DNA of 63,896 nt, filler included, from Streblomastix strix (lineage: Eukaryota), in the NCBI GenBank assembly GCA_008636045.1. It is 3 parts of 3 records of this genome, joined end to end, with 100 filler letters (N's around TTAATTAATTAA, not from the genome) between each part and the next. Parts side by side here need not be neighbours in the genome. Positions count along the whole stretch, not along the records: positions 21,737 to 43,360 come from SNRW01000362.1; 2 more parts are not named here. The stretch is one strand, 5' to 3'. The position numbers and the translations under genes are program-made. Positions 11,546-50,790 of the stretch are shown one piece after another; positions within the stretch are counted from its first letter, which is position 1, and each line of letters opens with the position of its first letter. Under the pieces are notes generated by a model, which made no database searches, was not told the origin of the DNA, and worked only from the letters and a program-made list of their open reading frames with translations.

Positions 11546-11642
<97 letters not shown>

Positions 11643-21736: not shown

Positions 21737-21774
21737 ATTCAAATAAAAAATTTATTATAATTAATAAATACAAT

Positions 21775-21904
21775 CTGCGTATTATGACCCTTCCAGCTGT
21801 TCAATGTCAATAAGTGGATGTATATGTTAAAATCTTCTTTCAAAGGCTTAACTAACACAGGTAAGATCAGACTCATTTGATAGATCATTTTGGAGCTCTT
21901 ACAT
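21775..21904 (-). CDS. Exon of an unknown gene truncated at the contig end (mirror of 43193-43325)
   Basis: MQELQNDLSNESDLTCVSQAFERRFQHIHPLIDIEQLEGSQYAD followed by a GT donor. Confidence 0.45.
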
Positions 21905-22600
21905 ATTTATATATAGTCTATATGAGTAAAAATAACGAGAAAAAATATAATTAAAATATAAAAAAAAAATATTTTTCTCAAAAATAAAGGAATGTACAAT
22001 AAATAATTAAATAAATTTGATAATAGTGAAGTAATATTCATTGGTATAAAAAAATGTCTTAAATTTTGTACAAAATTTAAGATAGATCAGTGATTAAAAT
22101 AAGCATATTATTTTTTTTTTATCTTTGCTTTTAATTTCTGATTAATTTATACTAATTTGTTGGCAATTTATTTACATAATAATTCATTAATTTTTTAATA
22201 TAAAATTAATTTTATTTTAAAAGTATAATTATTAATACTAACAAGCCTTTGGCTCAAAAGCTCGATTTTGGCTCTATTAAATTTGGCTTGCCTGGCTGTA
22301 CCTAACAGGCTTACTAAGAATATATTTATTTTCCATTTTGAAAATGTTACTAATTAATAAGTCTACTATATACAAGGATAAATTCAATTGTTTTTATATA
22401 TGGAATTTTTATTAAGTATAAATACAAAAATAAAAACTAATCACATACACAAAAAAAGACTTTCAACCAATTATTAAATAACGTTAATTGAATATGTTTT
22501 GAGAAAATAGTTTAAATATATGATAAGAATTGAAGGGATATATTTCTGAATATCATTTATATAGAATAACAAATAGCTATAATGAATATAATATAATAAA

Positions 22601-25600
22601 TCAATTAAACCCAAATCCATTATCAGTGTTATTCAATGCGTAAAGAATACGCATTTCCATGATTTCTTCTAATTAATACAGTGGAATATCAATTGAATTA
22701 AAGCAAGTATGTCCTTTTGGAAGAGGAAACCTTAAAGATTCTTCTTCCAATTATTCAATTTATTATTTATTTATTTCAGATTTAAGTTAATCATTCAATC
22801 TAATTTCAATTAATAATTTCTCTTCCAATTCATTCAATTCCATTAAATGTGCTTATTCAAGATCATCATCATATTATTCAACATTAATAAGTGCTTAGTT
22901 AGATTTCTTCTCTATCTCACAAGTAACTGAATGAATAAGTTTTGTTATTTGAAGTGTCTATTACAATCTTTATCTTGATTTACGTGAATTTATACGTTGA
23001 ATGTTTAATTCTATTAATGGTTGGTTAGATCTGTTTTGAATTGTAGTTGTTTTAATATCTGCAATATAAGCAATCTTTTCATTTGCAAATGCTTTCAATT
23101 CTGCTTCATTAGCTAATTTCTATATTTCATTCGCATTTTAAGAAGAAAACTTAGTCAAACCTCGATTAAGATGAGTTCTCTGTTAAATGAGACTGTCAAA
23201 ATCTACAATTAAGTTTGAATTCATATTTATTTCATATTAATTATTCTCTATTTCACATTCTTCAATATCTTTCTTAATAAGTTCAATATTTCTTTTGTAT
23301 ATATTAAACATTAACATTTATTCAGCATTTTTGATTTTATTTTCATTAAGTGCTCGGATTGCACATTCATGAATATTAGCTTCAGCCTTAAGTGCATTAA
23401 TATATTCATCAATTCTTTTCTTATATTCAGATATCGATTCTCTATTCTATTTAACTGAAAACAATTATATTATTTCATCATTAATCTTCACATTACATGA
23501 AACCCATTTAATTTCAAATACATATCCATCGCTATTTAAAGGCAATCTTGCAAATCCACCAATGGGCAGATTTCTCACACCTGTACTAAACTATAATAAA
23601 TCCCTCCTTTATTTATCATTCATTCTTCTTATTATATTCCATATCCATTAACTTTATTATTCAGATTATTATCCTTTTATTCCATCATAATGGCAGAATC
23701 TTTCCCATTCAGATACATCAATTTCCTAAGATCCACAAATGATATCATCCAATTCTTTTGGAGTTAGTTATGTTGGTGTAATAATCTCTTTATATTTGGA
23801 ATTAGATTATTATTGATCATTAATATCATTCTCACGTGCATCATCTTATAATATCAATATATGATCTGAGAATAGATATTCATATGGAAGTGATTCTCTG
23901 AAACCTTGAAATAGAGCAGATCTTTATTTTATTGATTTATCAGATCCAAATATCTTTCTTTTTGCATATAGATTAATATATTCAGATTAATTCATGCTGT
24001 TAACTTATATATTCTGTCCATCTGGTTTAAGAGGAATATTTATTATTTTAATTTAATTATTTGTTTGATTAAATGATGAAGAAGAAGAAATATTATTATT
24101 ATTTTAATTTAATATATAATTATCTTAACCTTCTTCTTCAATAGATATCTCAAATGATAAATCAATCTATTTACAATATTCAGGATCATCCAACATATTC
24201 CTCATTCTTTGTGCAACTTCTTATTCTTCTTCTCCCAAATCTTCAATACAAGGAGATTATCCAAGTAACTGTCTCCATATTGAATAATCAAGACGACAGG
24301 ATGTTGATACTTTCTATAGAAGTAATACTTTACCAATCATTACTCCAGCTGTCCACCATGGAAGATAATCTTTTAGTTCTTCATCTGATAATTCATCTTG
24401 GTTCTTTATTAATGGTAAAGATTGTTTCTATTATGATTATATTGGACTCTTCCTGCATTTATCTTATCCATGATCATCTCCAAAAACAGTTAATCTCATT
24501 TCTTTCCCATGATGTCTGAATATTCCATTCAAAGGATTAGTTGCTTCTTTGAAATACTCAGTGCACCATTCAGCTAATAGACCTCCAGCATCGGATCCAA
24601 ATTCATTCTCAAATATAACATACGATTTCTTCTTTAATTTCTTCTCTTTACGCAAATTCCATAATTGAATTTCAGTTGTTTCTAATATTTTCTATCGATC
24701 AATTCTTACTCTTTGTTCACCACGAACATCATTCCTTATTAATGTAACTTCTGACAGATGAGGTCGAGGTGTTATTTATGATTTGTTATATTGTTCTGTT
24801 GATAGAATGAGTTCATATGTTCTGATGTATTACTTACTCGCATAGTTTGCTTCACGGAATGCAATCTTCTCTTCTTGTTATAATGGATCTTATTTTGAGT
24901 TATTTTATTTTGATTATCGAATTTTTTTTAATTCATTCAACCTCTTAATTGATTTCTCAATTTCCCTTCATGCTATTCTGATCTGCATTACAAGTCCATT
25001 TGTATAATATAATGAAGAGAGACTTAAATTCTTAATATGATTATTATATTCTTTTATTCTCCATTCAAGTTATTCTTATCTCTCTTATGCTGGAATATCA
25101 TACTGATCGCACTTCGATAAATCTCTAATTAAATCATTGATGGTTATTTATATAAGCATTTCATCTGATCTTTAGAAGAAAAGTTGCTTATTATGATGAA
25201 GTGGATTATATGCATTAAGTTTCAGCTTTAATTCTGATGAAAATATATTGGATTTGATTTCTGAAGATGATTATGGTTCTGATGAAGAAGAAGAAGATTA
25301 TTATTCTTTGGATTTTTCATCAAGCCCTTGTTTAAATTTTATTCTGCAGAAATATTCATGCAAACTAAAGACCTAGTTAGCAATTTATTTATTGCAGAAT
25401 TCGCATTATCTACTTATTTTTTCCTCAGAATTGAGATTAATTCCATACTCATTACCTGATGATCCTTATTATGAATTTGAGTAATAAGATGGTGAAACAT
25501 CACGATCAATATCATCTTCAAATGATGGAGTGATATGAAAACGTCTCATTCTATTAAATCCTTCAAATTGAAGTATTCATGAATGAATTATAGGAGGAGA

Positions 25601-26497
25601 TTGAGAAGATGAAAATGAAGGTGAAATTGAAGATGGATTAAATGAGAAACTATTTTGGCTTTATGTTCGCGTTAATTAAAAGGAAATACTTGAATTTAAA
25701 CTTTCAGATGAATGTAATGGACTTTATAATTAAAATTAAGATTAGGATTCATCATCATTACTTATGTATGGTGATTATCTAGGTGAAGAGGATTAAAATT
25801 CAAAGGAATCTGGGGGAAAATGTGTTAAGTGAAAATTTTACATATTACTAACATACGGAGATGGATGAAATATAAAAGGAAATTAGGGATTGTTTGAAGC
25901 GATAGGTGATTAATGCTAATTATTTTAATTGAAATTATTTGAGTTAGGTGGAAGAAGAAGACCATTTTAACGTTATTAACGTCGTATTTCATCTGAATCT
26001 ACTGGAAAGTTTGTTCTTGGTGGTGAATTAAGAATAGAAAAAGGAATTTGTTAAATGTTGTTCTATTATATTTGATTCCTTTATTCATTTGAAATTGGAG
26101 GATGAAGGAGATTTGATACTTGACTTCTTTATTCGCCATTATTTGAAGAAGGAGATTATCTAAGGTTGGATCTATAAACTTAATTATGCTCGTATAATTC
26201 AAGTGAATCAATCATATAAGGTTAAATATTTGAAGATAATTAATGAGGAGACTGAGACTATAAATGTAAATCAGATGGCTGTAATTAAACATTTGGTTGT
26301 GTTTCAGTATTTGCATCAGGTGTGTTTTGTTGAATTTGATGATCAATAGGATCTTACTAATGAGCTATATTTTATCCAGTTAAGTCAGACTACTCTGTTA
26401 AAGCACTCTGCTGAGCTCCTGTACTTGAACCTTGAGTGTTTTGCTGATTTTGTTGATCAACATGTTCTTACCTTTGTACTCCTGATTATTCAGTCAT
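22601..26497 (-). CDS. HECT-domain E3 ubiquitin ligase (mirror copy), apparently intronless, ~1298 aa
   Basis: Reverse complement of 38600-42496. Confidence 0.9.
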
Positions 26498-26759
26498 TTT
26501 AACTATAATTTTTATTACTATAAATAAAATATAAAAGATTGTTAAATAAAAATTGTTCAAGTACTTCAGTACTTAGCAGGAAATCAGTTTTTTTTCTATA
26601 TTTTGTTTATTTAGCTTTAAAATTTATTTTATTTTAAATAATTACTATTATTTTTAACTAGATAGCATATTGAACACAAATATTATAATATATAATAATA
26701 ATGATGCTTTATGACCGAGTAATAAAAATTTTGTACACAGTTATCTTTTTGATGCAATA

Positions 26760-28288
26760 TCATTCATTTCTACGCTTAGAGTCATTTGAATGGAAACACT
26801 CTGAAATTAATGAAAAGATCTTGAACTTAAAGTATAAATCTAAAAATGTACTGCTACTAGCATTGTTTCTGAATATATGTTGATAGAAATTAATATCATT
26901 AATGATAGCAAACAATTATATAATTTTATTGCTAATATTAAGAACAATTTAAACACACTTATCTGTTTTCATTTCTCTGAAAATCTTAAAGAATGATGGT
27001 CGTTCTTCTAATAAATAATTCTGTTATACTTATAATTAGTAGTCGTAACTAAGAAATTATTAATATAAAGTAGATCATATATGAATAAAAAAAAGAAATT
27101 TTGAATATGAATAAAATTAGTTTTCAGTTAATAATTAATTACCTTCTCTAATACATTTAAGACAAAGTAATTTGTGAAACAGGAACTGGTGAAATTTGAA
27201 GTGCATTCTATTAATATTAGTTCACTATTGCAAGAGTTGAGGGTGGAGGTGAGATATTTTAATTACTAAAATTATTTCTTTAATTTTCTCTTCCTTAATT
27301 TATTATTATTGCATCCCTTGGACTGGATATTTTGCATATTGGACATTCATTTTTGGATTATTGCCAGTGCACTGAACATTTTAAATGAACCTTAATAAAA
27401 TGATTATTATAATTAAAATAATATTAATAAATGTTTCTAATACAATAAAAAATATTAATATACTTAATGACCACATGCTCTGTATATTTCAACTCCATTT
27501 TCAAAAGACCAATCTATTATTTCTTCTTACTTCAATATAACATTAGAATTATTCATATTAATATCACTCGATTGTTCCTATTCAATAACTTAACTTCTAC
27601 TCCTGCTTCTGCTTCTACTTCTCGATAATGCTTCTCCTACTTACTGTTAATTATGATTTTATTTATCAAGTAGATCTCTATATATTTATGGACGATTAGC
27701 AATAATTTATTACTAAATTAATAAAATAAAGATTATTAATAATAAAATTTATAAGTTTAGTAATATCAAACATATTTCATTAATTTCTTAATATGTGCTT
27801 TAGGAAATTTCTTTAAACAAATTGGACAAAACTAACTGAATAATGGAATATGAGATGTTGGACAGTACTATATTTTTTATTGATATATCAAATATTATAA
27901 ATTGGGAAAACATAATTAAAATTAGAAGAAATTTAATTTATAATATACAAACACATACTTATAAATTCTGTTGTATTTCAAATATTTCTCTTTAATATCT
28001 TTTAATTCTTCTATTCTCTAAACAAATCTTAATTTTCCAATATGTCATAATTTTGAATAGGTAAATAATTGACATTAAAATCCAAATAGGAAAACTTATT
28101 AAGATCAGAATTAATTGAATAAGAAGGTAAAAGAAAGTTATGAACAATCTGCAAATGTGATATAAATAAAAATAATATATTATAATTTAATAATAAAAGT
28201 AAAATTAAAAGAATACACACATTAACCCAATCACAACAAATATTATTCCCCAAATTATATCTTTTGTTTCTTCCTCTAAATCGAACAT
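26760..28288 (-). CDS. Membrane-anchored RING-H2 E3 ligase (mirror copy)
   Basis: Reverse complement of 36809-38337. Confidence 0.75.
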
Positions 28289-28808
28289 CTTTGATATAAA
28301 CAAATATAAAACAAAATAATTAAGGAATTTTGTAGTAAATCGTAAATTATAGGTAGTATTTTATGTATAAGATAGTATACATTGAGTGCATCAACATTAA
28401 CTAAATTTATTTTCTTCGGGAGACCAGTATTAGTGGAGAGAATTGGATTAGATGTTTAGAAAATTTAGGCATTTTTACCGATATTTTCATAATTATATTT
28501 TATTTAATTTTATTGTAATATGTTCTATACAGCAATAAATTTAATATTTATATGAAATTGAAATAGAATTTAGGCTTATGGATGTCGTAAGAGTTGTTTT
28601 AAAAGCGAAAAAAATAAATATCCTGATTTTAGGCTAGTTTAGCTTAAATTTAGGTTTGTTATAAATTTATCATAATTTAAATTTACTTTAATTAGGTTAA
28701 AATCAAAATTTTTGGAAAAATTCAATAAAATTCGAAATTTTTTTTGAAGCGAAATGAATAAAGTAACGACTTGCAAGAGAATCAAAGAATGATCTTAAAA
28801 ATAAACTT

Positions 28809-29102
28809 ATGATGAGGATTATAACAACTGCATAAGGAAATTTGACTTCAATTTCAAGTTCTGGATACAATTCAGCATTCCCTTTGATCATGACTTATTT
28901 CATAATCTCTTTCATCAACAACCCTAACGGATTGTTTCCTATATCATAGTGCTTTGCTCTTCACCTTTTTTTATTAATTGGAAGCTTACTCCCCTATATG
29001 GCCTAATTCCTCGAACAAACAAGAATTTACGCTCTTAGCTCATCAGCCCCAGTCCTCGCGTCGCGAATAATACAATCTTTCACACCAGACGAGTACAGCA
29101 AA
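28809..29102 (+). pseudogene. 98-codon open frame, possibly the 5' part of a membrane-protein gene interrupted by the TIR element
   Basis: MMRIITTAQGNLTSISSSGYNSAFPLIMTYFIISF...FTPDEYSK has no TGA, lies divergent from the RING gene and abuts the 26-bp TIR. Confidence 0.35.
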
Positions 29103-29368
29103 GTAGTTATGAGAATATGGAGAGTGCCCCACATAGAAAAATAAAATAAAATAATGTTAATAAAATAATAATAATAAATAATAATAATAAATAATGAAAA
29201 TAAATAATATTAATAAAATAATTTAATAGAAAATAGACATTTGAATATGATTAATGAATATATGATATTGAATATAATTATTAGTATTGATTAATGAATT
29301 GATTAATGAATTTGATTAATGATGTATGATTTTTGAACGTATGGCACTCTCCATATTCTCATAACTAC
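29103..29368. mobile_element. 266-bp MITE-like element with perfect 26-bp terminal inverted repeats
   Basis: gtagttatgagaatatggagagtgcc (29103-29128) and ggcactctccatattctcataactac (29343-29368); AT-rich interior with gattaatgaat repeats; no TSD visible. Confidence 0.7.
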
Positions 29369-29626
29369 ATGGTGAGGTTAATGGATTTAGTTGAAGTTGC
29401 TACGCAGAAATTTATTAATGGAAACCTAAAATTATTGATGAATTCAGCCGTAAGCGGAGGTCATACCGACATAGTAAATTGAACATTGAATTTTGAATGT
29501 TTATGAATTCATTGAAGAAATCATTGATGAAATCCATTAGTAAATTGAACATAAAATATATTTGTTTTTATGCAATGAGCCGCAGGCGGAGGTCTAACGA
29601 CATGCACCGAGTCCTAAAACATCAAT

Positions 29627-32402
29627 AAAATATATGTTATTGGCACGTATAAATGGAATAGGTTATGAATGGCTTATGACTGCACCGAGTGCATCGAATG
29701 CATCGGGTCAGAAACTTTTATAAAAAGCTGTGGCCAACTGGACAACTGGCTAATAATTGAGAAAAAAATAAATTTATTTAATGTTTCACGTATTTATTTG
29801 TTCGTTGTTGTCTTCATTAGCATCTTCGTTGATATCTTGGTCTTCTTCTCTTAATCTATCATATAATTTTACTAAATCTTCATTCAATTTATATATCCAT
29901 TTTCGTTTTCCAAATATTGTTTTTTATATTCTTTGACATTTATTTTTGAGCTAAAATTAAAATGATTTCTCTTTAACATCGAATGGTTTAAATTATAATG
30001 CTATAGTGCAAGGCACGACTTCCTTAAAAGTTTGATAATTTTACAAGATTACATCATCAAGTTATGAACGTGATGCTCTAATTATGTCCTTTTTCGCTTT
30101 TGTGAATGGAATGATTCTTTAGTTCCAACCTTCAATATTACTGGTAATAAAATAGGTAAATAAATTATTGTAAAAGTCAGTTGTGAAACCATTAGATAAT
30201 GATGTGAAATATTCAACGTCATCCCTATGAACTGCCTTACATCTGCACACAACATAACGCCTATCATTCGCTTCAATTTTGATTGGGAAATCGTTATTGG
30301 TTACTATTATCAAATTTATTACATTTTCTGATGTTCGACGAGGTTAATTTTTTTCATTTATTCTTATTTGATTATCTGTTATAATCGACTTCAACGCATC
30401 CATGTTCGAATATCTTGCTTCTCCAAAATTTTTAAGTTCATTGGATATTCCAAGCATTATATTTTCAACGACAGAATTAAATTGGCCTGTAAATTCGCTA
30501 ATATCTGTAATATTTTTAATTGAATAACCAGCTAATAATTCACATAAAATATCAGTGAATCTATTTTTGCCTATACCTTGACTGCCTTACAATATCAATG
30601 TCACCTCTGATTTTACACCTACATTTTATATAATAAATGCAATCCAATTTAGAATATTATTATATAAATTTTCATCATCTGCTGCTATTGTTTTATATAT
30701 TAATTCTAAATAATCGTTAATAAGGTCCTCATTAACCGAAGATAATTATTAATATTTATAGCATTAAAATATACTGCAAACGTCTTATTCATCACTCATA
30801 AATTTTATTGCTCTCAGAGCAAATAAAGGATTAAATTTTTCTAGAACAAGTTTTAATGTTATTTTCTTTTATCCATCTTCCCATAATCTAACCATTTACA
30901 ACTAATCATAAGCTACTGTTTTATTTATGTATTAAATTTTATTCTTTTAATTTACTGCATCGTATTATTTAACTATAAATACTTAACCTCCATCACATGG
31001 AGCATATCGTAATATTCTAGTTAAGTCCTGAGCTATTGGTTCGTATTCATTATATTTATAGATACCATTTTATAACTTTTTTTACATATCAAATAGTGTG
31101 AAACTATCTTTTAAATCAATTTTTTATACTTCAATTTAATTTTTACATCTTTTTTCATTCACTAGCATAGGCATTACATATTCTTAATAATATTTTGGAT
31201 TATATTTTTTAATTATTTTTTATAAAACGAATGGATGCGATTATTTTTATTCATATCTTTTTTTAGCTGCATCAAATTATTATTTTGCTCTATCTGTTAA
31301 ATTATTATTAATTTTTATTTTTTCATATATTTCTTAAATGAATTGATTATCAATTCCTTCTATATTGATTATACTATTAATTGCTGCAAATAATGGAAGT
31401 AAAGTTATTTCATCATTTAAATTATGACTCTATGAGTCGTTATGTATTTCAAGACCACTAATTCCTTTACATAACATAATCACAAAATCCTTTTTCATAT
31501 CGATTAGTCCTGTTGGTTGTAATAGTGGCTTGTCTTATTCATTATATTATTCCTTTTAGTTTGGCATGACCTATTAATTAACATCCAAATCTATTCCGAA
31601 TATGTTCAAAATTTATCCTAAATCACATAAATTTATTTTATATAAATAATCATTTATAGCTTCATGTTAACATATAACTTTAATTTCTCCAATTTATTCG
31701 TTCTAATCTTCAATTTATTTTGTGGCTTTAACTCTATCACGTATTTTCGACCCGCATTACATAATCCATCTTTGTTTATCATCAATACATGCAAATATAT
31801 CCACATTAAAATTATCACATTTATAAACTTATATATTTGATGTTTTCTATAATTAAAATTCATTGATATCGCAATAAATATGAAGCCCTCCATGTGCTGT
31901 TTTGATTAATCCAACATTTTAAGGCATTTTTTCAATGATTGATTCTCGAATTTATTTTTAAATTAATTTATCTAAATTTTTATTTATATCAATATCAACA
32001 ACAGCAAGATTTTAACATTTTGATTTATCGATTACTCTACCTGAACATGATTTGCATGTCTTACCAATGATTGAAAATTTATTGTAATCATAAGTATTCA
32101 CATATAAATTTTAGATGCGTTCTTAAATTATTAATAATTAGCTAGTTTGTGCTTGATTGCCTTTTGATTCCATTAATATATTGATAAAAAGTTGAATTTA
32201 TATACAACAAACTCGTTTATTTTTAAAATAAGTTTATTTTTTTATTTTTTAAGTTTTTTATTTTTCATCAATAAATTGGCCAGTTGGCCAGATGGCCACA
32301 GCTTTTTATAAAAGTTTCTGACCCGATGCACTCGATGTACTCGGTGCAATCAATAGCCATTCATAACCTATTCCATTTTTTCATGCCAAAATCATATACT
32401 TT
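29627..32402 (-). mobile_element. IR-flanked primase-helicase unit (mirror copy)
   Basis: ~145-bp inverted repeats at 29627-29772 and 32257-32402 around a single ORF. Confidence 0.75.
29786..32173 (-). CDS. Prim-Pol-like primase fused to SF3/D5-like helicase (mirror copy)
   Basis: Reverse complement of 32924-35311. Confidence 0.88.
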
Positions 32403-32694
32403 CAGATTGAGCTAAAATGGTCATATTCGGAATCAGCGCATATGAATTGTATATATAGTTGATTATCAAATGATTTTAAAATTTCATGAAAATAAAGTTA
32501 TTTTTTATTTTTTTTATTTTTTTAATTCCTATATATAATGACTGTAAAAATTTAAGCCAAAAAATAAGCCAAAAAATTAATGTTTCCATATTGCCTTGAG
32601 AATGATGTTTATATACAATGTTGATACGTAGAATTCAAAAATGACGTTTAAATCGAAATCTTAAACGGTCGATGAATCCGAATATTGCAATCTA
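32403..32694. other. Non-palindromic 292-bp spacer at the palindrome axis
   Basis: Symmetry breaks here; residual degenerate inverted match (atattcggaatca / tgaatccgaatat) and a taagccaaaaaa doublet near the midpoint. Confidence 0.9.
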
Positions 32695-32840
32695 AAAGTA
32701 TATGATTTTGGCATGAAAAAATGGAATAGGTTATGAATGGCTATTGATTGCACCGAGTACATCGAGTGCATCGGGTCAGAAACTTTTATAAAAAGCTGTG
32801 GCCATCTGGCCAACTGGCCAATTTATTGATGAAAAATAAA
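32695..32840 (+). repeat. Upstream inverted repeat with iteron-like motifs
   Basis: 3x 9-mer tgcaccgag/tacatcgag/tgcatcggg (32749-32775), cttttataaaaag near-palindrome, 3x 8-mer tggccatc/tggccaac/tggccaat (32799-32822). Confidence 0.88.
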
Positions 32841-32923
32841 AAACTTAAAAAATAAAAAAATAAACTTATTTTAAAAATAAACGAGTTTGTTGTATATAAA
32901 TTCAACTTTTTATCAATATATTA

Positions 32924-35311
32924 ATGGAATCAAAAGGCAATCAAGCACAAACTAGCTAATTATTAATAATTTAAGAACGCATCTAAAATTTATATGTGAA
33001 TACTTATGATTACAATAAATTTTCAATCATTGGTAAGACATGCAAATCATGTTCAGGTAGAGTAATCGATAAATCAAAATGTTAAAATCTTGCTGTTGTT
33101 GATATTGATATAAATAAAAATTTAGATAAATTAATTTAAAAATAAATTCGAGAATCAATCATTGAAAAAATGCCTTAAAATGTTGGATTAATCAAAACAG
33201 CACATGGAGGGCTTCATATTTATTGCGATATCAATGAATTTTAATTATAGAAAACATCAAATATATAAGTTTATAAATGTGATAATTTTAATGTGGATAT
33301 ATTTGCATGTATTGATGATAAACAAAGATGGATTATGTAATGCGGGTCGAAAATACGTGATAGAGTTAAAGCCACAAAATAAATTGAAGATTAGAACGAA
33401 TAAATTGGAGAAATTAAAGTTATATGTTAACATGAAGCTATAAATGATTATTTATATAAAATAAATTTATGTGATTTAGGATAAATTTTGAACATATTCG
33501 GAATAGATTTGGATGTTAATTAATAGGTCATGCCAAACTAAAAGGAATAATATAATGAATAAGACAAGCCACTATTACAACCAACAGGACTAATCGATAT
33601 GAAAAAGGATTTTGTGATTATGTTATGTAAAGGAATTAGTGGTCTTGAAATACATAACGACTCATAGAGTCATAATTTAAATGATGAAATAACTTTACTT
33701 CCATTATTTGCAGCAATTAATAGTATAATCAATATAGAAGGAATTGATAATCAATTCATTTAAGAAATATATGAAAAAATAAAAATTAATAATAATTTAA
33801 CAGATAGAGCAAAATAATAATTTGATGCAGCTAAAAAAAGATATGAATAAAAATAATCGCATCCATTCGTTTTATAAAAAATAATTAAAAAATATAATCC
33901 AAAATATTATTAAGAATATGTAATGCCTATGCTAGTGAATGAAAAAAGATGTAAAAATTAAATTGAAGTATAAAAAATTGATTTAAAAGATAGTTTCACA
34001 CTATTTGATATGTAAAAAAAGTTATAAAATGGTATCTATAAATATAATGAATACGAACCAATAGCTCAGGACTTAACTAGAATATTACGATATGCTCCAT
34101 GTGATGGAGGTTAAGTATTTATAGTTAAATAATACGATGCAGTAAATTAAAAGAATAAAATTTAATACATAAATAAAACAGTAGCTTATGATTAGTTGTA
34201 AATGGTTAGATTATGGGAAGATGGATAAAAGAAAATAACATTAAAACTTGTTCTAGAAAAATTTAATCCTTTATTTGCTCTGAGAGCAATAAAATTTATG
34301 AGTGATGAATAAGACGTTTGCAGTATATTTTAATGCTATAAATATTAATAATTATCTTCGGTTAATGAGGACCTTATTAACGATTATTTAGAATTAATAT
34401 ATAAAACAATAGCAGCAGATGATGAAAATTTATATAATAATATTCTAAATTGGATTGCATTTATTATATAAAATGTAGGTGTAAAATCAGAGGTGACATT
34501 GATATTGTAAGGCAGTCAAGGTATAGGCAAAAATAGATTCACTGATATTTTATGTGAATTATTAGCTGGTTATTCAATTAAAAATATTACAGATATTAGC
34601 GAATTTACAGGCCAATTTAATTCTGTCGTTGAAAATATAATGCTTGGAATATCCAATGAACTTAAAAATTTTGGAGAAGCAAGATATTCGAACATGGATG
34701 CGTTGAAGTCGATTATAACAGATAATCAAATAAGAATAAATGAAAAAAATTAACCTCGTCGAACATCAGAAAATGTAATAAATTTGATAATAGTAACCAA
34801 TAACGATTTCCCAATCAAAATTGAAGCGAATGATAGGCGTTATGTTGTGTGCAGATGTAAGGCAGTTCATAGGGATGACGTTGAATATTTCACATCATTA
34901 TCTAATGGTTTCACAACTGACTTTTACAATAATTTATTTACCTATTTTATTACCAGTAATATTGAAGGTTGGAACTAAAGAATCATTCCATTCACAAAAG
35001 CGAAAAAGGACATAATTAGAGCATCACGTTCATAACTTGATGATGTAATCTTGTAAAATTATCAAACTTTTAAGGAAGTCGTGCCTTGCACTATAGCATT
35101 ATAATTTAAACCATTCGATGTTAAAGAGAAATCATTTTAATTTTAGCTCAAAAATAAATGTCAAAGAATATAAAAAACAATATTTGGAAAACGAAAATGG
35201 ATATATAAATTGAATGAAGATTTAGTAAAATTATATGATAGATTAAGAGAAGAAGACCAAGATATCAACGAAGATGCTAATGAAGACAACAACGAACAAA
35301 TAAATACGTGA
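32924..35311 (+). CDS. Prim-Pol-like primase fused to SF3/D5-like helicase, intronless, 795 aa
   Basis: One TGA-free frame under TAR=Gln: LAVVDID (DxD), KTAHGGLHIY (AEP motif II His), Walker A LILQGSQGIGKN, Walker-B region GISNELK, LKSIITD..IRINEKN.P, motif C IIVTNN, Arg finger DRRYVV. Confidence 0.9.
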
Positions 35312-35324
35312 AACATTAAATAAA

Positions 35325-35470
35325 TTTATTTTTTTCTCAATTATTAGCCAGTTGTCCAGTTGGCCACAGCTTTTTATAAAAGTTTCTGACCCGATGCATT
35401 CGATGCACTCGGTGCAGTCATAAGCCATTCATAACCTATTCCATTTATACGTGCCAATAACATATATTTT
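35325..35470 (-). repeat. Downstream inverted repeat of the primase-helicase unit
   Basis: tggccacagctttttataaaagtttctgacccgatgca...agccattcataacctattccattt is the reverse complement of the upstream repeat cores. Confidence 0.88.
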
Positions 35471-35484
35471 ATTGATGTTTTAGG

Positions 35485-35660
35485 ACTCGGTGCATGTCGT
35501 TAGACCTCCGCCTGCGGCTCATTGCATAAAAACAAATATATTTTATGTTCAATTTACTAATGGATTTCATCAATGATTTCTTCAATGAATTCATAAACAT
35601 TCAAAATTCAATGTTCAATTTACTATGTCGGTATGACCTCCGCTTACGGCTGAATTCATC
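35485..35660. repeat. GC-rich direct repeats with mini-hairpins beyond the downstream IR (mirror at ~29437-29612)
   Basis: atgtcgttagacctccgcctgcggctca and atgtcggtatgacctccgcttacggctga; atgttcaatttacta twice; one extra iteron copy actcggtgca. Confidence 0.7.
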
Positions 35661-35728
35661 AATAATTTTAGGTTTCCATTAATAAATTTCTGCGTAGCAA
35701 CTTCAACTAAATCCATTAACCTCACCAT

Positions 35729-35994
35729 GTAGTTATGAGAATATGGAGAGTGCCATACGTTCAAAAATCATACATCATTAATCAAATTCATTAATCAATT
35801 CATTAATCAATACTAATAATTATATTCAATATCATATATTCATTAATCATATTCAAATGTCTATTTTCTATTAAATTATTTTATTAATATTATTTATTTT
35901 CATTATTTATTATTATTATTTATTATTATTATTTTATTAACATTATTTTATTTTATTTTTCTATGTGGGGCACTCTCCATATTCTCATAACTAC
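35729..35994. mobile_element. 266-bp MITE-like element with 26-bp TIRs (mirror copy)
   Basis: gtagttatgagaatatggagagtgcc ... ggcactctccatattctcataactac. Confidence 0.7.
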
Positions 35995-36808
35995 TTTGCT
36001 GTACTCGTCTGGTGTGAAAGATTGTATTATTCGCGACGCGAGGACTGGGGCTGATGAGCTAAGAGCGTAAATTCTTGTTTGTTCGAGGAATTAGGCCATA
36101 TAGGGGAGTAAGCTTCCAATTAATAAAAAAAGGTGAAGAGCAAAGCACTATGATATAGGAAACAATCCGTTAGGGTTGTTGATGAAAGAGATTATGAAAT
36201 AAGTCATGATCAAAGGGAATGCTGAATTGTATCCAGAACTTGAAATTGAAGTCAAATTTCCTTATGCAGTTGTTATAATCCTCATCATAAGTTTATTTTT
36301 AAGATCATTCTTTGATTCTCTTGCAAGTCGTTACTTTATTCATTTCGCTTCAAAAAAAATTTCGAATTTTATTGAATTTTTCCAAAAATTTTGATTTTAA
36401 CCTAATTAAAGTAAATTTAAATTATGATAAATTTATAACAAACCTAAATTTAAGCTAAACTAGCCTAAAATCAGGATATTTATTTTTTTCGCTTTTAAAA
36501 CAACTCTTACGACATCCATAAGCCTAAATTCTATTTCAATTTCATATAAATATTAAATTTATTGCTGTATAGAACATATTACAATAAAATTAAATAAAAT
36601 ATAATTATGAAAATATCGGTAAAAATGCCTAAATTTTCTAAACATCTAATCCAATTCTCTCCACTAATACTGGTCTCCCGAAGAAAATAAATTTAGTTAA
36701 TGTTGATGCACTCAATGTATACTATCTTATACATAAAATACTACCTATAATTTACGATTTACTACAAAATTCCTTAATTATTTTGTTTTATATTTGTTTA
36801 TATCAAAG

Positions 36809-43460: not shown

Positions 43461-44989
43461 ATTAATATCTTAATTATGTAATATAATATTAAGATATATA
43501 TTCAAATCATCAAGTTCGCCAAAAGCCACTTTTAGGAAAATTTTCATTTTCTGCCATCATATGATGATGACTAGGAGACGAAGATGAAGTATCTATGTAG
43601 ACGAATATTGGACAATGATTTGAAGGCGGCGCGAAGAGAGAACTTGGAAGATTTATTTATAAAAAAAAGGAGAAAAAGAGCCGCGATACGAAAGATATAA
43701 AGCCGGTTCAATCATAAAAAAGAGCGCGTGGCGAAGATGGGGAACATATATAGAAGATGATGATTGATTTGGAACAGGGAGACTGGGACGAAGGCTGTGA
43801 TGAGCCCATCTAAGGATTTCCGGAAAAACCGAACGAACGACATAGACAATAAGATGCAAGGTAGGGAAGGATGAATAATAGTTAATAAGAGTAGAGAACA
43901 CATGATAGAACGCATTAGAGCCAGGCAAAGTAGATGGCTGAAATTTTAAACAAGAAAATGGCAGTGCAAGCATCAGCATTTAAGCCGCTGGGCTATTCAG
44001 ATAGATCATTCGTATTTTGCGACCTTGGCAAATTCAGATATATGCGATCGGACTGGAAAGTAGTAGCGCCAAAAGGCAGGACAAAGCTGAAATAGGGCGA
44101 TTAATACGCAGAAGCGATGACCGGGCTTATTGATGCATAATAGGCTTTGCTGGTTGCAACTGAGAATGGATTAGGTGGTAATAATAACATTGAGTAGATA
44201 GCACATGCCTATGCAATGCTGTGCGTGGGCGCAAATGCGGTAGCGCAGCTGAGAGAATTTGCAAATGCACCAAGCGAACTAAGAGGAATAGAGGGAGGTA
44301 GCATTTTACCTGCAAATATATTCTTTGATGATAATACTGAAAGTATTAAAAGGTTTCTGAACCTTAAAATGATGGAATTGTTGCATTATCCATATCAACA
44401 AGAGCTGTCCGCATACCCACAGCCTTAAATCCAGAAACCATAGTTGCAGCAGCATTTGTTCCAACCGTTTTAAACACTCGAATCTTTCCAGCCATTATAG
44501 ATAAAGCAAGCACTGTATGCTGCAAGCTAGTTCAATTATGGACGACGAACAGCAGCAGGAAAAGGATTTCAATCAAGAGGACGCGGAGGAAGAGACAGGG
44601 GAGCCTTTGGCTACAATTTTATACCATTAGGAGGGTAGTGAGTCAGTGTGGAATTGAGTAATTAGAGTGGATGTAATGAAGTGGTGAATGATAGTGGGGA
44701 ATAAGGAGTGTAAATTAGTGAGAGAAAGAGTGTTTAGGATGAGGAATCGTTGGGTGAGGGTTTTTACAGTACAATAAACCGTATCCCAACACAAATATGA
44801 TTGGAGCCCGTTTATAACTTTATATTAGAGCTTATCAAAAAATAAATATGGACAAAACAATTAAGGTAGGATGCTACGCAAAATGGAAGAATCAGGAGAA
44901 CAAGACAATATTGGCGCGGAAGCGAAGAGTAATTTATTTTAACGGGAACGAGGAATAGGTGGAGTAACTGGATCAATTGATAAGGGAAG

Positions 44990-46700
44990 AATTGGATCAA
45001 AGAAAAATTAAAGTGATTAACTAATAGGAAGTCTTATTGTGGAACAGAACGTTTGAAATAAAGAAGTCGGGGGGAGGATTGAAGAGAATGATATAATGCC
45101 GACCACTGAACACACAACTGAAATTCCAAAAATTTTACAATGAACGATCTGAATAAGGCACTTGAAATATAGAATAAAGACGGTTGGGCATGCCTAATGG
45201 ACATTAAATCAGCATTTAGCCATGTTGCAATAACTGGGGAGTTAGAGAAATACCTGGCCTTTACGCATATGGAGAAACATTATATGCAAGTGGGAATGCC
45301 ATTCGGAATCTCGATAGCACCGAGAACCTTTGCAAAGACAATTTAAATAACAATAGATAGAGTGAGAAGTAAGAGTCTAGTATGAAAAATTAATTGTGCA
45401 GACGATATTTTGTTCCTGATGCAGGATTAGTAGTAATTGGAGAAAGAAATAGGGTGGATTGTATAGGAGTTTAGGAAATATGGATGGGTGATTAACGAGA
45501 GTAAGAGTAGCTTGAAGCCAGAATAGCAATTTGTGTTCCTGGGATAGATGTATAAATAAGCAACAATGAAAATTTAATTGACTAACGATAAGAGGAAGGA
45601 GTTGAGAGCACTAGTTCAAAGATTGATGAATCTAATAATGCAATAAAGATCGCAAAGGATTAGAAGCATGACAATTTTGGTTGGTAAACTTAGGTTTTCC
45701 ACTCCATAATTCAAACGAGGAGGACTGCATCTATAGCAAATAAATAAATAAATGAGCAAAGCGGCGAGAGTAACGGGCTGGACAAGCGAAATGATAGTAA
45801 CGAAGAAGATTCTGACAGAGCTGTATTGTTGGATGAATCAGCTGGAGAGTAACAAATCAAAGATGATAGATAAGAGAAAAAACCAGATAATAATTCAGAC
45901 ATACGCATCAATTTCGGGATCGGTTGCGAGTGTGATAAGAATAATGTGCGAATTAGAAGATTATACAAGCAATAGAAAGCGGATATGGAGAATTCGAACA
46001 TGCGAGAGATATTAACGATATACAGAGCTGTACAGTTGCCGAAAGAATATAATAACCTATAGGAATATGGTTGAATAATGATAGAAACAGGTAATACAAC
46101 AGCTTGTTTCTCAATAGCAAAAGCAAAGGCAAAATATCATTTGAGGAAAGCGGTAGATTCGATCTTATAAATAGAAGTGGAAAATGGATGGACATCAATA
46201 ATAAGACATATCGCTGGGAAATCGAATAAAGAAGCGGACGCGTTTTCAAGGTTATCGATGGCAGGGGAAAACTCAATAAGGAAGGATGTTTTAGCGGATG
46301 TTTTGAAGGACTGGCAAGTAGAGATAACAGTGGATTTATTTCCAGCAAGAAATAATGCTAAACATAAGAGATATTACACATTGGGGAAGGACTGGAAAGC
46401 CGAAGGACGAGATTCGATGAGAATCTCCTGGGAAGAAGAGTTTGCACTAATACACCCACCGATACCAATAATATATAGGATAATAAGGAAAATATTAGAG
46501 GAGAGAGCTTAAGGAATAATGATAGTACTATGTTGGCCTGGGTAGGTTTGGTGGACATAGTTATAGGAAATAACAGTGAGAGAGACGGAATTGGGAGAAA
46601 ACGAGAAGGTATTGGAGATGGGATCGAAGATTAGGAAGAAGAATCTGAAAGTCTCTCCGGGGAAGATATTAGCTTTAGAGGTAAACAGGGATAAGATGGA
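44990..46700 (+). pseudogene. DIRS pol (RT-RNase H-methyltransferase-like), disrupted
   Basis: Frameshift near 45130, in-frame TGA near 45381, YxDD changed to CADD. Confidence 0.85.
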
Positions 46701-47245
46701 GCAAGATTATTCCGAAATGCTTTGGAAGCTTCCGGATTTTCAAGAAATGCAATTAGATCGATAATAGGTGACTGGCATGGAAGTTGGAGAAAGCACGTCT
46801 GCGTGTTATCAGCCATTTGGAAGTATTTGAGAAGGAGAGGAATAAGTGAGGGGCAGTTAACAAGGATAGATAAACCATATATAATAATAGCAGAATATAT
46901 AACAAACATATTAAAGGATTTGTCGGAAGCATTCGTAATGCAAGCAAGAACTTCAGTATCAACAATGTTTGATTTAGTGAGAAGAGAAGAAATGGATATA
47001 AAAAATAAAGTTATAGAATAGCTAATGTTAAAACCAGTTTCAAATATGAGGAAAGTTATCAGAGAAGTGACAACCTGGAAAATGGAGTAGCTACTCGACT
47101 ACATTGCGAAGCTGAGGGTATAAAGAGATGAAGAAAAACTAACAGTTACTGAGTTAAGGAGAGTAGTCATAACTATATTTATGGTAAATTCAGTCTTAAG
47201 ATTATCAGAAATTCAAAGAGTTATGCTAAATATAACGTAAATAGA
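46690..47245 (+). pseudogene. DIRS tyrosine recombinase, 3'-truncated
   Basis: ASGFSRNAIRSIIGDWHGSWRKH...WKMEQLLDYI...LRLSE (first catalytic Arg box); no HxxR or Tyr region follows. Confidence 0.75.
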
Positions 47246-47247
47246 AT

Positions 47248-47718
47248 AATATATAAATGAACAGCAATAAATTATAACTTAAACAAAAGTTTTTCTTTAA
47301 AATGAAAAAAGAATTAATTTAAATTATTTAAAAATTTCAATATTTTAAATAATTATAAAAGATAAAAAATAAATTATATTAATAAATTTGTTAAAAAAAT
47401 TTTAAAAGAATATGTATTTTAAATAATTTCAATAATTATCAACTAATATAAATGATTTAATAAATCACTTTTTAAATGGGCTGTTAGAGAAATTTAAAAA
47501 AAATTTATTAAACAAAATTTTTAAATGAAATATTAAAAATATTTTAATTAAAATTTCTACGTCCTCATTACTGGAACTATATATATCATAAGTTCGATAC
47601 CCAGCCATCTGGACATTCTCATAAAATGTATGATGATTCATCCTTCCGTGTTGTTAATTAATTTCCTATTCTTCCAATTGTTAAATTCTTCATTCAGTTA
47701 TTTTTTATTCATCTTTAA
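47248..47718. repeat. Direct repeat block A (copy at ~49561-50055)
   Basis: Shared atataaatgaacagcaataaatt ... tgatgattcatc ... ttcattcagttattttttattcatcttt, with scattered differences. Confidence 0.88.
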
Positions 47719-48151
47719 TAATTTTAAATGATTATACATTTTAACGTGGAGTTTGAATCAAAATGTTTTGAAATGCCTTTAGTTATTTTAAAAACTATTT
47801 AGATCAATTTTTTTGCCAACACTTTCATTTTCAAGTCTTCACTTTGTTGTTTATTCCTTTTCTATTTGATTTCTTTTTTAATTTTTTTTCTTTTTCAAAT
47901 TCTTTTCTTAATTATTTTTTGTTTGCTTGACTTTCTTTCTAAATTATTCCTTTTTTTAATCGATTTCTTCTCTAAATTATTCTCTTGTTTGTTCAATTTC
48001 TTCACTAAATTATTCAATTCTTCTATTTAAATATATTCATGATTATTCAATTTTTCTTCGTATTACTTTTCTGTTTATTCAATTTTTTTTCTAAATTATA
48101 TTTTTGATTCTTCAATTGATACATTTTTTTATTCTAAATCAAAAGAATCAT

Positions 48152-48310
48152 TAAATAAATTCAATTTTAAATAATTTTATTTTTTTTATGAAATTATTGT
48201 TTTGTACAAAGAAAGAAATATTTATTAAACTAGTTTTAAATAATTTCAGCAATTTACAATTAATGAAGATAAATTAATAAATTGCATTATAAATTGATCG
48301 TTTGAAAGAA
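48152..48310. repeat. Direct repeat block C (copy at ~50637-50790)
   Basis: aaataaattcaattttaaataattt...tttgtacaaagaaagaaatatttattaaa...ttgcattataaattgatcgtttga at both sites. Confidence 0.88.
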
Positions 48311-48409
48311 TTTGTTATACAGCAGTTTATTGAAAATTTTTCATAACTAAAAGTTGATATATTTTTATTTTGAAAAAATTTGCATTTGAAGTGTTATAAA
48401 TTTATATAG

Positions 48410-49490
48410 TCAGTATTCATAATCATCGTTACTTGAACTATCAGAACTATCGGTAGGATAACCTGCCATAGGGACATTTCCATCTATGCTGTGACGATTC
48501 ATCATTCCAGGTTGAATCTTTATTTCGCTATCATCTTATTAGTTTTATTTCTATAATTCTCAACTACATACGTCTTAATCATCCATTATTGATTTTAAAC
48601 TATTTCTATTTTTTTCATGATTACTATTTAAAATTTAAAAAAATTTCTAAATCATTACTTATTTATCATCATTTTACGAATCTAGTAATTTCTTTAATTA
48701 ATTTCTCATTTTCATGTTTTCATTAATGAAATTGTCCCTTTTTTATTTAATTTCTTTATCAATTTTCTATCTTTTCTTCCAAATTTCTGTTTAAAAATCA
48801 TATTTTTTCTGTTTTAATTCAGTTTTTATTTAATTAATTCCAATTGGAGTACTTGATTAATATGGAGTTTTACCAGATTAAACTAATGGACTTTATTCTG
48901 GAATATTTAGAGCTGATAATTAATACAGTTATTGCATTCAAGATAGAAGAGTTTATTCATCATTTATCCTTTTTCCATCTTATTCCATTCATCTTCATAA
49001 TTTCCATTCTGTTCGTTATCGTAATATTACTCTTTTTGTTTTCATTATTCTTAATCCTATTCATTTTCATTTTCTATTTTTTTCTCGTATTTTTATTCTT
49101 TCTCTTATTACTATCTTATATTCTTATTCTTTTTCATCATTTATTTATTAATTTTATTCGCAGCTTTAGCTGCTGCTCTCATTTTCTTATTTTATCTTTT
49201 TTTCTCATTTTAGTCTTAATATTTATTCTCTTCTTCCTGAGTATTTACAACATTTTCATAATTTTATATTTGGGACTGAAAATATGGCTATGAAAATGTA
49301 ATAATTCAATTACTCTTAATATCATCAATTATTGAGGAAGCGCAGCACCCGCCCAATGTTTGAATCATCATTTTATTAAATTATTAATTATATAATAATT
49401 ATGAAATCCATGATACTTATTACCCATCGTTACCAAAGAATCCATAGCTTAAGCGGATCACATTTCTACCAATATAGATCATGTTTCTTA
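48410..49490 (-). pseudogene. E/K/Q-rich coiled-coil gene or remnant; paralogous C-terminal segments at ~47560-47700 and ~49897-50040
   Basis: Minus-strand QPGMMNRHSIDGNVPMAGYPTDSSDSSSNDDYEY-TGA resembles QHGRMNHHTFYENVQMAGYRTYDIYSSSNED in block A. Confidence 0.45.
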
Positions 49491-49560
49491 CTAAATAAAT
49501 GAATATAGAATTATTAAAAAAATTAATTACTGAATTAAAATTACCAAATTACAGAATATG

Positions 49561-50055
49561 ATATAAATGAACAGCAATAAATTATTACTTAAATAAAAGT
49601 ATTTTTTTAAAATGAAAAAAGAAATTATTTAAATTATTTAAGAATTTTAATATTTTAAATAATAAAAAAAAATAAAAAAAAATAATTTAATAAACTAATT
49701 ATAAAAAATTATATAGATATATTTTAAATAATTTCAATAATCATCAACTAATATAAATGATTTAATAAAACACTTCTTAAATGGGTTGTTAAAGAAATTT
49801 TTAAAAAAAAATTTTTACTAAAAAAAATTTTTAAAAAAAAATTTGTGAAACAAAATTTTTAAATGAAATATTATAAATATTATAATTAAAATTTCTACGC
49901 TCTCATTACTGGAGCTATAAATATCATCAATTCGATACCTAACAATCTGGATATTCTCGTCAAATCTATGATGATTCATCATTCCATGTTGTTAATTAAT
50001 TTCCTATTCTTCTAATTGTTAAATTGTTCATTCAGTTATTTTTTATTCATCTTTC
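49561..50055. repeat. Direct repeat block A'
   Basis: Diverged copy of 47248-47718. Confidence 0.88.
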
Positions 50056-50636
50056 GTAATTTAAACAATTAATTTTAAAAATAAGTTTTACAAAATAAGG
50101 AATACTCAATAATTAACAGTTTGTATAAAAAAAATAATTAGTCATTTTATCAATAATCCGTTAAAGAGAATTTAAAGTAATGGTTTTTTGGAAAAATTTT
50201 CATTAAGAAAGTAGTTTACAATGGTTTATATGTTTAATTCATTATCTTTTGTATCGGTGAGTCTCATCACAACAAACCACGGTATTTTTATTATGTAAAT
50301 ATTATTTAAAATAATATTATTAAAATTGGAATTTATGATAAGTCCCTTTTGTATCATTGATAAAAAGTGCTCAAAAAATTTTTTGGTTTTAACGCACCGC
50401 GCTGGCAATTCAACTTTTCATATTTATTTTTTATCTTTTAGACTAAATTTTACTTTCTAAGTTTCATTAATGCCTTAATCTCACTTAATTTTTAGTCATT
50501 CTGCATATTTAATTATAGAATCAAGTATAGAGAGAGAACCATCAATAGAAGCTAAATTGATGCTACAATCACAACAAGATTATTAATTATTATAAAAATT
50601 TAAACAATTTTATTGTCAAAAATTAAAGTATTCATG

Positions 50637-50790
50637 AAATAAATTCAATTTTAAATAATTTTTTTTATGAAATTATTGTTTTGTACAAAGAAAGAAATAT
50701 TTATTAAATTAGTTTTAAATAATTTCAGTAATTAACAATTAATGAAAATAAATTAATAAATTGCATTATAAATTGATCGTTTGAGAGAAT
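50637..50790. repeat. Direct repeat block C'
   Basis: Diverged copy of 48152-48310. Confidence 0.88.

What the first reader, a model, noticed from the sequence alone, without database searches (positions are those of the whole stretch)
32695..35470. Minimal IR-bracketed Prim-Pol/SF3-helicase unit: candidate undescribed self-replicating mobile element
Seen: one intact, intronless 795-aa ORF that uses the host TAR=Gln code, with AEP/Prim-Pol motifs (VVDID, TAHGGLHIY) and SF3 helicase motifs (GSQGIGKN, IIVTNN, DRR). It sits between ~145-bp inverted repeats that end ~85 bp before the ATG and start ~15 bp after the TGA. Known: primase-SF3 helicase fusions are replication proteins of D5-type viral replicons, some Polinton-like elements and pRN1-type plasmids, and are not core eukaryotic genes. 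No transposase, integrase, pPolB or capsid gene is visible nearby; the neighbours are host E3 ligases. Inference: a one-gene unit that primes and unwinds from its own terminal repeats, either an autonomous replicon or transposon, or a module excised from a larger virus-like element. The standard-code ORF track shows only a 64-aa piece of it.
Basis: partly seen in the sequence, partly recalled or inferred. Interest (0 to 1): 0.9.

Follow-up and report, generated by a model that had tools for sequence, protein, structure and literature searches.

The report
Stripped Polinton-like virus replication end
A DNA-copying gene between two mirror-image repeats in a gut protist's genome belongs to a high-copy family and is likely a decaying, stripped-down end piece of an integrated Polinton-like virus rather than a new self-moving element, though a family of such one-gene minis is not ruled out.

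Summary
The ORF (32924-35311, 795 aa, TAR=Gln) and its 128-bp, 89% inverted repeats are real. AEP Prim-Pol and NrS-1-type SF3 helicase folds are confirmed. (1) The unit is one arm of a 10.7-kb near-perfect palindrome that fills a whole contig, likely a fold-back or assembly artefact, so only 278 bp of true left flank is known. (2) The gene belongs to a metamonad family found inside Polinton-like elements: a full-length relative lies beside pPolB, an A32-like ATPase and DUF4108. (3) In public runs the family is high-copy and ends near the right repeat. Variation among copies is mostly synonymous, but this copy's private changes are 21 of 27 non-synonymous, as neutral decay predicts. Best reading (0.5): a chromosomal, internally deleted Polinton-like derivative that kept its terminal repeats and primase-helicase and would need a helper integrase. 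A recurrent one-gene satellite family is possible (0.2) but not shown. No integrase, target-site duplication or empty site was found.

The parts
32924..35311 (+). 795-aa primase-polymerase/SF3 helicase ORF (P0001), table 6
   Evidence: Pfam DUF5906 aa 528-639 E 8.9e-19; AF2 mean pLDDT 86.7
32963..33523 (+). AEP Prim-Pol domain (aa ~14-200); D60, D62, D125 invariant in 75 of 75 aligned, H98 in 74 of 75
   Evidence: VIA Z 9.0 (rmsd 3.5, 152 aligned) to pRN1 ORF904 3m1m, Z 7.9 to NrS-1 6a9w; Foldseek E 1.4e-4 to 1ro0
33587..33943 (+). helical domain (aa ~222-340), inferred primase accessory bundle
   Evidence: secondary structure of models; no specific fold match
34043..35215 (+). NrS-1-type SF3 helicase with C-terminal winged-helix-like part (aa 374-764); Walker A G533/G535/K536, Walker B E579, motif C N626, R638-R639 conserved
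   Evidence: VIA Z 27.3 (rmsd 4.0, 364 aligned) to NrS-1 6k9c
32695..32822 (+). left inverted repeat; holds a 9-bp x3 array (32746-32772), an AT-rich palindrome and an 8-bp x3 array (32797-32820)
35343..35470 (-). right inverted repeat (89% to left); family boundary lies at or just beyond it
   Evidence: summed depth falls 5- to 22-fold beyond it in 4 of 4 runs
32874..32882 (+). promoter-like A-rich 9-mer 50 nt before the ATG, also seen before gene starts of Polinton-like loci L005 and L025
   Evidence: function inferred
32410..32687 (.). 278-bp spacer, the only known left flank; carries the same promoter-like motif (32489) before a 28-codon ORF (32538-32624), so possibly element-derived
21737..32409 (-). 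mirror arm of the contig-filling palindrome, with an identical copy of the unit (ORF 29786-32173) and of the host genes; likely artefact
   Evidence: one mismatch (32403/32694), 6 bp from the spacer
35729..35994 (.). separate 266-bp MITE-like repeat with perfect 26-bp terminal inverted repeats in the right flank

Best explanation
The unit encodes an AEP primase-polymerase fused to an SF3 helicase between two 128-bp inverted repeats, and is likely a chromosomal, internally deleted derivative of a metamonad Polinton-like virus that kept its terminal repeats and its terminal replication gene and is now likely decaying. Shown: the folds and catalytic motifs, a high-copy family ending near the right repeat, relatives inside Polinton-like elements, and no integrase or capsid gene here. 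Inferred: in active relatives the hexameric helicase would load at the short repeat arrays in the terminal repeat, melt the AT-rich palindrome, and the AEP domain would prime and extend, as in NrS-1, pRN1 ORF904 and SaPI PriRep; insertion would be supplied by the integrase of a full-length element. Inferred: the 10.7-kb palindrome is a fold-back or assembly artefact, not part of the element.
For: Protein. Family: all 42 of 120 listed homologues that carry an organism name are metamonad (35 Streblomastix, 4 Monocercomonoides, 1 each Trichomonas vaginalis, Histomonas, Tritrichomonas). Polinton link: L025 holds a full-length relative (38% over aa 6-686) next to DUF4108 (E 5.7e-6), an A32/Zot-like ATPase and a pPolB-like ORF whose 2 closest of 3 homologues carry PF03175; helicase-only relatives lie beside A32 (L003, L009), DUF4108 (L005) and a weak rve hit (L010, E 1.8e-4); these rows are interleaved with the other family members in the helicase tree (quick tree). 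TvMav3 elements have 100-130-bp TIRs, DUF4108, and a 'Poxvirus D5 protein' in 8.6% of 1705 copies (PMC12289875 Suppl. Tables 3, 5). S. strix holds 820 Polinton-type capsid genes, M. exilis 6 (PMC10120064 Table S1). PLV primase-helicase genes beside the terminal repeat are described (PMC11296320). High copy and right boundary: 6746 records laid in X1, summed depth 24-fold higher on the ORF than on the flank, drop of 5-22x beyond the repeat in 4 of 4 runs from at most 3 studies. Decay: 21 of 27 window-private differences non-synonymous (random expectation 80%) against 3 of 13 among-copy differences, Fisher p 0.0017; examples C471, K494, N506, T525 where 74, 63, 72 and 66 of 74 relatives share another residue.
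Against: The left end is not verified: only 278 bp lie left of the repeat, and they carry a promoter-like motif shared with Polinton-like loci (6 of 2000 shuffles, 0 of 179 other tiles; motif chosen after seeing the spacer), so the element may go on to the left. No target-site duplication of 6 bp or more was found. No host-genome copy was seen next to Polinton genes; the link rests on relatives at 35-41% identity from other guts. The ORF is still open over 795 codons. The decay test uses only the 40 of 458 differences that displayed, and the runs may be other strains. In X2, X3 and X4 the ORF-to-flank depth ratio is only 1.3-3.5, and summed contig depth is no copy number.
Confidence: 0.5

Rival explanations
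1. The stretch is the right end of a longer Polinton-like element (or of a nest of such elements); the left repeat is internal or belongs to a rearrangement, and the rest is hidden by the fold-back.
For: Promoter-like motif and a 28-codon ORF in the spacer; in L025 the gene follows DUF4108 directly; the contig gives no sequence beyond the spacer; the right flank is itself a nest of repeats.
Against: The left repeat is an inverted 89% copy of the family's right boundary, the usual mark of an opposite end; none of 103 queries from Polinton-like loci hit the window outside the two ORF copies.
Confidence: 0.25
2. The repeat-ORF-repeat unit is itself the amplified family: a one-gene satellite of Polinton-like viruses that copies itself with its own primase-helicase and borrows integrase, and perhaps capsid, from a helper (closest to the first reader's idea).
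For: Depth in X1 is even along the ORF and ends at the repeat; the repeat bin is 3.7-7.3x the ORF median; variation among copies is mostly synonymous; mis-extended gene models of three distant Streblomastix relatives run into three-fold tripeptide repeats after the C-terminus, as 9-bp arrays would give (3 of 333 stored proteins); the D5 gene is only sporadic in T. vaginalis Mavericks, while its cluster has 198 members on chromosome-size contigs; repeat-flanked mobile helicases are proposed in PMC11296320.
Against: Two repeats per ORF and purifying selection are also expected of full-length elements; no second bracketed copy was seen in any locus; 5 of 5 informative groups of relatives have Polinton-type neighbours; a loose end in 4 X1 contigs looks, by eye, like a left-type repeat joined to another inner sequence (agreement 0.68, weak).
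Confidence: 0.2
3. An extrachromosomal linear plasmid, or a real origin-driven inverted duplication of 10.7 kb of host DNA caused by the element.
For: The inner end of the palindrome falls within 7 bp of the outer end of the left repeat; many unnamed homologues lie on 2.3-3.5-kb contigs.
Against: The unit is joined to intron-bearing host genes and shows neutral decay; arms are identical up to both contig ends; inverted joints with a gap and 2-21 nt of complementarity are the common product of whole-genome amplification (PMC1855051; PMC6218980). Whether this library was amplified is not known here. Short contigs are expected for repeats.
Confidence: 0.05

Closest known systems
Metamonada Polintons/PLVs, especially Trichomonas vaginalis class 3 Mavericks (TvMav3; PMC12289875) and the Metamonada MCP group of PMC10120064
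   Same: Same gene family by sequence and tree with members beside pPolB, A32-like ATPase, DUF4108 and rve; repeat length matches the 100-130-bp TvMav3 TIR; host genetic code used, as reported for S. strix endogenous viruses.
   Different: 2.8 kb and one gene instead of 15-26 kb and 10-14 genes; no pPolB, integrase, ATPase or capsid; repeats only 89% alike; TIR sequence not compared.
PLV 'replicative end module' and repeat-flanked mobile D5-like helicases (Barth et al. 2024, PMC11296320)
   Same: Primase-helicase gene directly beside an inverted repeat proposed as its origin.
   Different: No tyrosine recombinase or GIY-YIG nuclease next to it; sits in a protist chromosome between host genes; repeats on both sides are inverted.
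AEP-SF3 replicases: phage NrS-1 polymerase, pRN1 ORF904, SaPI5 PriRep5, ASFV PrimPol, poxvirus D5
   Same: Domain order and folds; catalytic residues kept.
   Different: 12-20% identity only; activity and origin binding untested; not in a phage, plasmid or giant-virus genome.
Non-autonomous TIR derivatives of DNA transposons (recalled, no call)
   Same: Ends kept, mobility genes lost, helper needed.
   Different: The retained gene is a replicase, which such derivatives do not normally carry.

Membership tests
AEP-SF3 primase-helicase (NrS-1/pRN1 type) | N-terminal AEP Prim-Pol fold with DxD, His and third Asp | tested here: met
   Z 9.0 to 3m1m, top 15 VIA rows all AEP-fold proteins; D60/D62/D125 75 of 75, H98 74 of 75
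AEP-SF3 primase-helicase (NrS-1/pRN1 type) | SF3 helicase with Walker A/B, motif C, arginine finger | tested here: met
   Z 27.3 to 6k9c
AEP-SF3 primase-helicase (NrS-1/pRN1 type) | Primer synthesis, ATP-driven unwinding, origin binding | not testable with these tools
   needs biochemistry
Complete Polinton/Maverick or PLV | Capsid proteins and A32 packaging ATPase | tested here: not met
   no coding room in the 2.8-kb unit; no hit of 103 queries from Polinton-like loci outside the ORF. DNA left of the spacer is unknown
Complete Polinton/Maverick or PLV | Integrase (RVE or tyrosine recombinase) and, for Polintons, pPolB | tested here: not met
Complete Polinton/Maverick or PLV | Terminal inverted repeats | tested here: met
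   128 bp at 89%; right one coincides with the family boundary; left one not shown to be terminal
Complete Polinton/Maverick or PLV | Target-site duplication (about 5-6 bp, recalled) | tested here: inconclusive
   only TATAT/TATA matches inside the repeat; ends are fuzzy
TvMav3 | TIR of 100-130 bp with DUF4106, DUF4108, primase and pPolB genes | tested here: not met
   length fits, genes absent from the window; present in relative L025 in part
PLV replicative end module (PMC11296320) | Primase-helicase gene next to the terminal repeat | tested here: met
   stop codon 31 bp from the right repeat
PLV replicative end module (PMC11296320) | Adjacent recombinase | tested here: not met
Autonomous DNA transposon | Own transposase or strand-transfer domain | tested here: not met
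   aa 14-764 are accounted for by AEP, a helical domain and helicase; forms longer than 1392 aa were not searched
Extrachromosomal plasmid (pRN1-like or transpoviron-like) | Free circular or linear form | not testable with these tools
   only contigs were available; this copy is joined to host genes

The most novel reading that the evidence does not exclude
Oxymonads carry a family of 2.8-kb one-gene mini-Polintons: terminal repeats with 9-bp iteron arrays plus a primase-polymerase-helicase that copies the unit in cis, spread as satellites by the integrase of full-length Polinton-like viruses. It would be a eukaryotic nuclear element whose only gene is a replicase, and a living example of the mobile end modules proposed to drive replicon swapping in Polinton-like viruses.
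Probability: 0.2. Interest if true: 0.75.

Novelty: new variant of a known kind. Interest (0 to 1): 0.42.

Why it matters
It assigns a large family of metamonad 'hypothetical' or 'Poxvirus D5' genes to the replication module of the poorly classified Metamonada Polinton-like viruses, shows an intact AEP active site in it, and points to a candidate origin (9-bp and 8-bp arrays around an AT-rich palindrome) that can be tested in vitro. If the bracketed one-gene form recurs, it would be a minimal satellite and a direct test of the end-module turnover model. It also warns that the contig-filling palindrome here should not be read as biology without unamplified reads.

Tried and rejected
No host genome was held, so copies, empty sites and flanks could not be compared. 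Reads could be laid only on 32924-35770, so the left repeat, spacer and palindrome joint were not examined in runs. No RNA holder listed. Viral contigs: 2 distant phage helicase loci with A1, none with P0025 or P0173, no exact match to a 21-nt repeat motif. Rfam: 0 matches in 32200-36800. Homologue searches with L025's DUF4108 (21 hits) and pPolB (3 hits) gave no named eukaryote, so co-location in Streblomastix was not testable. PMC12289875 supplements: no row for the T. vaginalis gene looked up; file 8 is cut and only part 1 of 3 of file 5 was read, so a listing of this unit there cannot be excluded; bioRxiv supplements were not seen. Ten paper searches listed no description of a one-gene repeat-bracketed primase-helicase element in a eukaryote genome; subscription papers and Repbase are not covered, and PMC2080659 was not held. 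The careful tree did not finish; the quick tree was used. The profile search gave 28,661 hits at E<=0.001 without names or context. Rejected: a domesticated host gene (high copy, intronless, neutral decay); a hairpin-ended replicon junction (spacer is not palindromic); a DDE or HUH transposon (no such domain). Earlier notes held nothing by sequence or place.

Full report
1. Observation. The ORF at 32924-35311 is open for 795 codons under table 6, with 54 TAA/TAG read as Gln; its Gln codon use and GC3 (0.18) resemble the neighbouring HECT ORF (0.16). The named motifs are there. The inverted repeats are 128 bp with 14 mismatches. Each holds a 9-bp three-fold array, an AT-rich palindrome and an 8-bp three-fold array. 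The host neighbours are a weak RING piece and a HECT gene.

2. The window is three contigs joined by N-linkers. The middle one (21737-43360) is a palindrome from end to end: arms of 10.7 kb, one mismatch 6 bp from a 278-bp non-palindromic spacer. The unit and the host genes are therefore present twice, identically. An inverted joint with a gap and a short imperfect complementarity is the usual chimera of multiple displacement amplification (PMC1855051, passages; PMC6218980, passages), and an assembler would also give symmetric ends. Whether this library was amplified is not known here, so I put artefact at about three in four. The consequence is that only 278 bp of left flank are known.

3. 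The protein. AlphaFold2 on 75 sequences gave mean pLDDT 86.7. The first 340 residues, folded alone, match pRN1 ORF904 Prim-Pol (Z 9.0, rmsd 3.5, 152 aligned) and NrS-1 (Z 7.9), and the top 15 rows are all AEP-fold proteins; Foldseek agrees (E 1.4e-4). Residues 374-764 match the NrS-1 helicase (Z 27.3). Catalytic residues of both domains are kept in 74-75 of 75 sequences, this one included.

4. The family. Of 135 hits among 6277 candidates, 120 were listed; 42 carry an organism name and all are metamonads, 77 are unnamed gut-type metagenome or run assemblies by source, and 1 has a function name only. The nearest, at 88% over the helicase half, is named from Streblomastix strix, and the runs that hold the stretch are mostly termite-gut, which with the genetic code points to an oxymonad host. 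The T. vaginalis cluster has 198 members; the 15 listed lie on contigs up to 20-40 Mb. In the helicase tree (79 rows, quick method) the window groups with the Streblomastix rows (support 99).

5. Context of relatives. Of 29 loci fetched, 18 are close relatives. They include five distinct groups with identifiable neighbours, and all five have Polinton-type genes: A32 ATPase (L003/L004; L008/L009), DUF4108 (L005), a weak rve hit (L010-L013), and L025. L025 is the only locus with a full-length AEP-SF3 homologue (38%); it lies after DUF4108, with a pPolB-like ORF and an A32/Zot-like ATPase upstream. The other close loci are too short or have no identifiable neighbour. None shows terminal inverted repeats around the gene. 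In print, TvMav3 has 100-130-bp TIRs and DUF4108, with a 'Poxvirus D5 protein' in 8.6% of copies (PMC12289875: section 6 and supplement file 1 part 1 read); whether that is the P0056 family I could not establish. S. strix has 820 and M. exilis 6 Polinton-type capsid genes (PMC10120064: section 9 and table rows), which roughly tracks many versus 8 NCBI-named helicase genes seen here; this is only suggestive. AEP-SF3 fusions are known PLV replicases (passages of PMC4642659, PMC12220804 and 10.64898/2026.06.19.733378), and PMC11296320 (passages and part 1 of 2 of section 9) proposes end modules in which the primase-helicase sits beside the terminal repeat that serves as its origin. Passages of PMC3671162 and PMC7845603 added background only.

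6. Copies in public runs. On 32924-35770, run X1 laid 6746 records, mostly 90-99% alike. Summed depth is even along the ORF in X1, peaks on the repeat (3.7-7.3x the ORF median in the four runs) and drops 5- to 22-fold beyond it in 4 of 4 runs from at most 3 studies. So the family is high-copy and ends near 35470-35490; loose ends show no single sharp terminus. Other copies carry different 9-bp arrays at the same place (table 7). Of the 40 of 458 differences displayed, 27 are private to the window (95% or more of X1 depth reads another letter): 21 are non-synonymous, as random change predicts (80%); of 13 that vary among copies only 3 are (Fisher p 0.0017). Several private residues fall at near-invariant positions. 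The family is under purifying selection; this copy looks like an inserted copy that has drifted, which also fits the 11% difference between its repeats. The sample of differences is small and chosen by the tool.

7. Left end. An A-rich 9-mer 48-51 nt before an ATG occurs at the ORF start and once in the spacer, before a 28-codon ORF, in 0 of 179 other tiles and 6 of 2000 shuffles, and before gene starts in L005 (2) and L025 (2, one of them not at a known start). The motif was chosen after seeing the spacer. It suggests that the spacer is element-derived, so the left repeat need not be the end. No Polinton gene was found elsewhere in the window and no target-site duplication.

8. Mechanism. Shown: folds, motifs, repeat anatomy, high copy, right boundary, Polinton-borne relatives, no integrase or capsid. 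Inferred from NrS-1, pRN1 and SaPI replicases (established knowledge, structures matched): a hexamer loads at the arrays, melts the AT-rich palindrome, primes and extends. Inferred: a full-length element with this gene at its end lost its interior, or a short derivative was inserted by a helper integrase; the protein has no strand-transfer domain and cannot insert the unit alone. I give 0.5 to this remnant reading, 0.25 to the visible end of a longer element, 0.2 to a recurrent one-gene satellite family and 0.05 to a free plasmid or a real duplication.

9. Novelty. The protein type and its place beside a terminal repeat are known for Polinton-like viruses. A repeat-bracketed one-gene form in a protist chromosome was not found in ten paper searches, but only one copy, decaying and with an unverified left flank, is in hand. 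Verdict: new variant of a known kind, interest 0.42; 0.75 if the satellite family proves real. An earlier AI note on an origin-and-initiator cassette in a giant virus (e1-8196899) is an untested analogue only.

Noticed in passing
window 21737-43360: The whole middle contig is a palindrome with one mismatch; host RING and HECT genes appear twice. Its inner end lies within 7 bp of the outer end of the left repeat, which is unexplained if the fold-back were random.
   Followed up: partly
window 35729-35994: 266-bp MITE-like repeat with perfect 26-bp terminal inverted repeats, no duplication seen at its ends; high summed depth, and weak joints to other places of the ORF in X1.
   Followed up: partly
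window 35480-35728: Right flank holds two similar 17-bp direct repeats and shows ~95-bp deletion joints in X1-X4, so it is itself a variable repeat.
   Followed up: no
window 43600-47100: Degenerate retroelement with raised GC (0.36-0.40): weak RVT_1 hit (E 8e-4, below cut-off); RNase H, methylase and tyrosine-recombinase-like motifs judged by eye and recalled as DIRS-like.
   Followed up: partly
window 47243-50799: Several direct repeats of 92-235 bp at 89-91% identity, 2.3-2.5 kb apart: a probable tandem duplication.
   Followed up: no
window 11545-11645: About 100 bp of (TA)n microsatellite.
   Followed up: no
L025 1-9384: A Polinton-like contig (pPolB-like, A32-like, DUF4108, AEP-SF3) binned in a bacterial genome record; it has two 9-bp three-fold arrays 57 bp apart between pPolB and DUF4108. 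L026 and L027 are similar probable contaminants.
   Followed up: partly
L010, L012, L013: Near-identical gut-metagenome elements with a helicase-only relative, a weak rve hit and two unassigned ORFs of 540-570 aa, about the size of the Metamonada capsid protein; not tested.
   Followed up: no
L006 605-3145 and L014 133-2571: Relatives of 810-850 aa whose N-terminal part is not matched by the family profile, suggesting another N-terminal domain on the same helicase.
   Followed up: no
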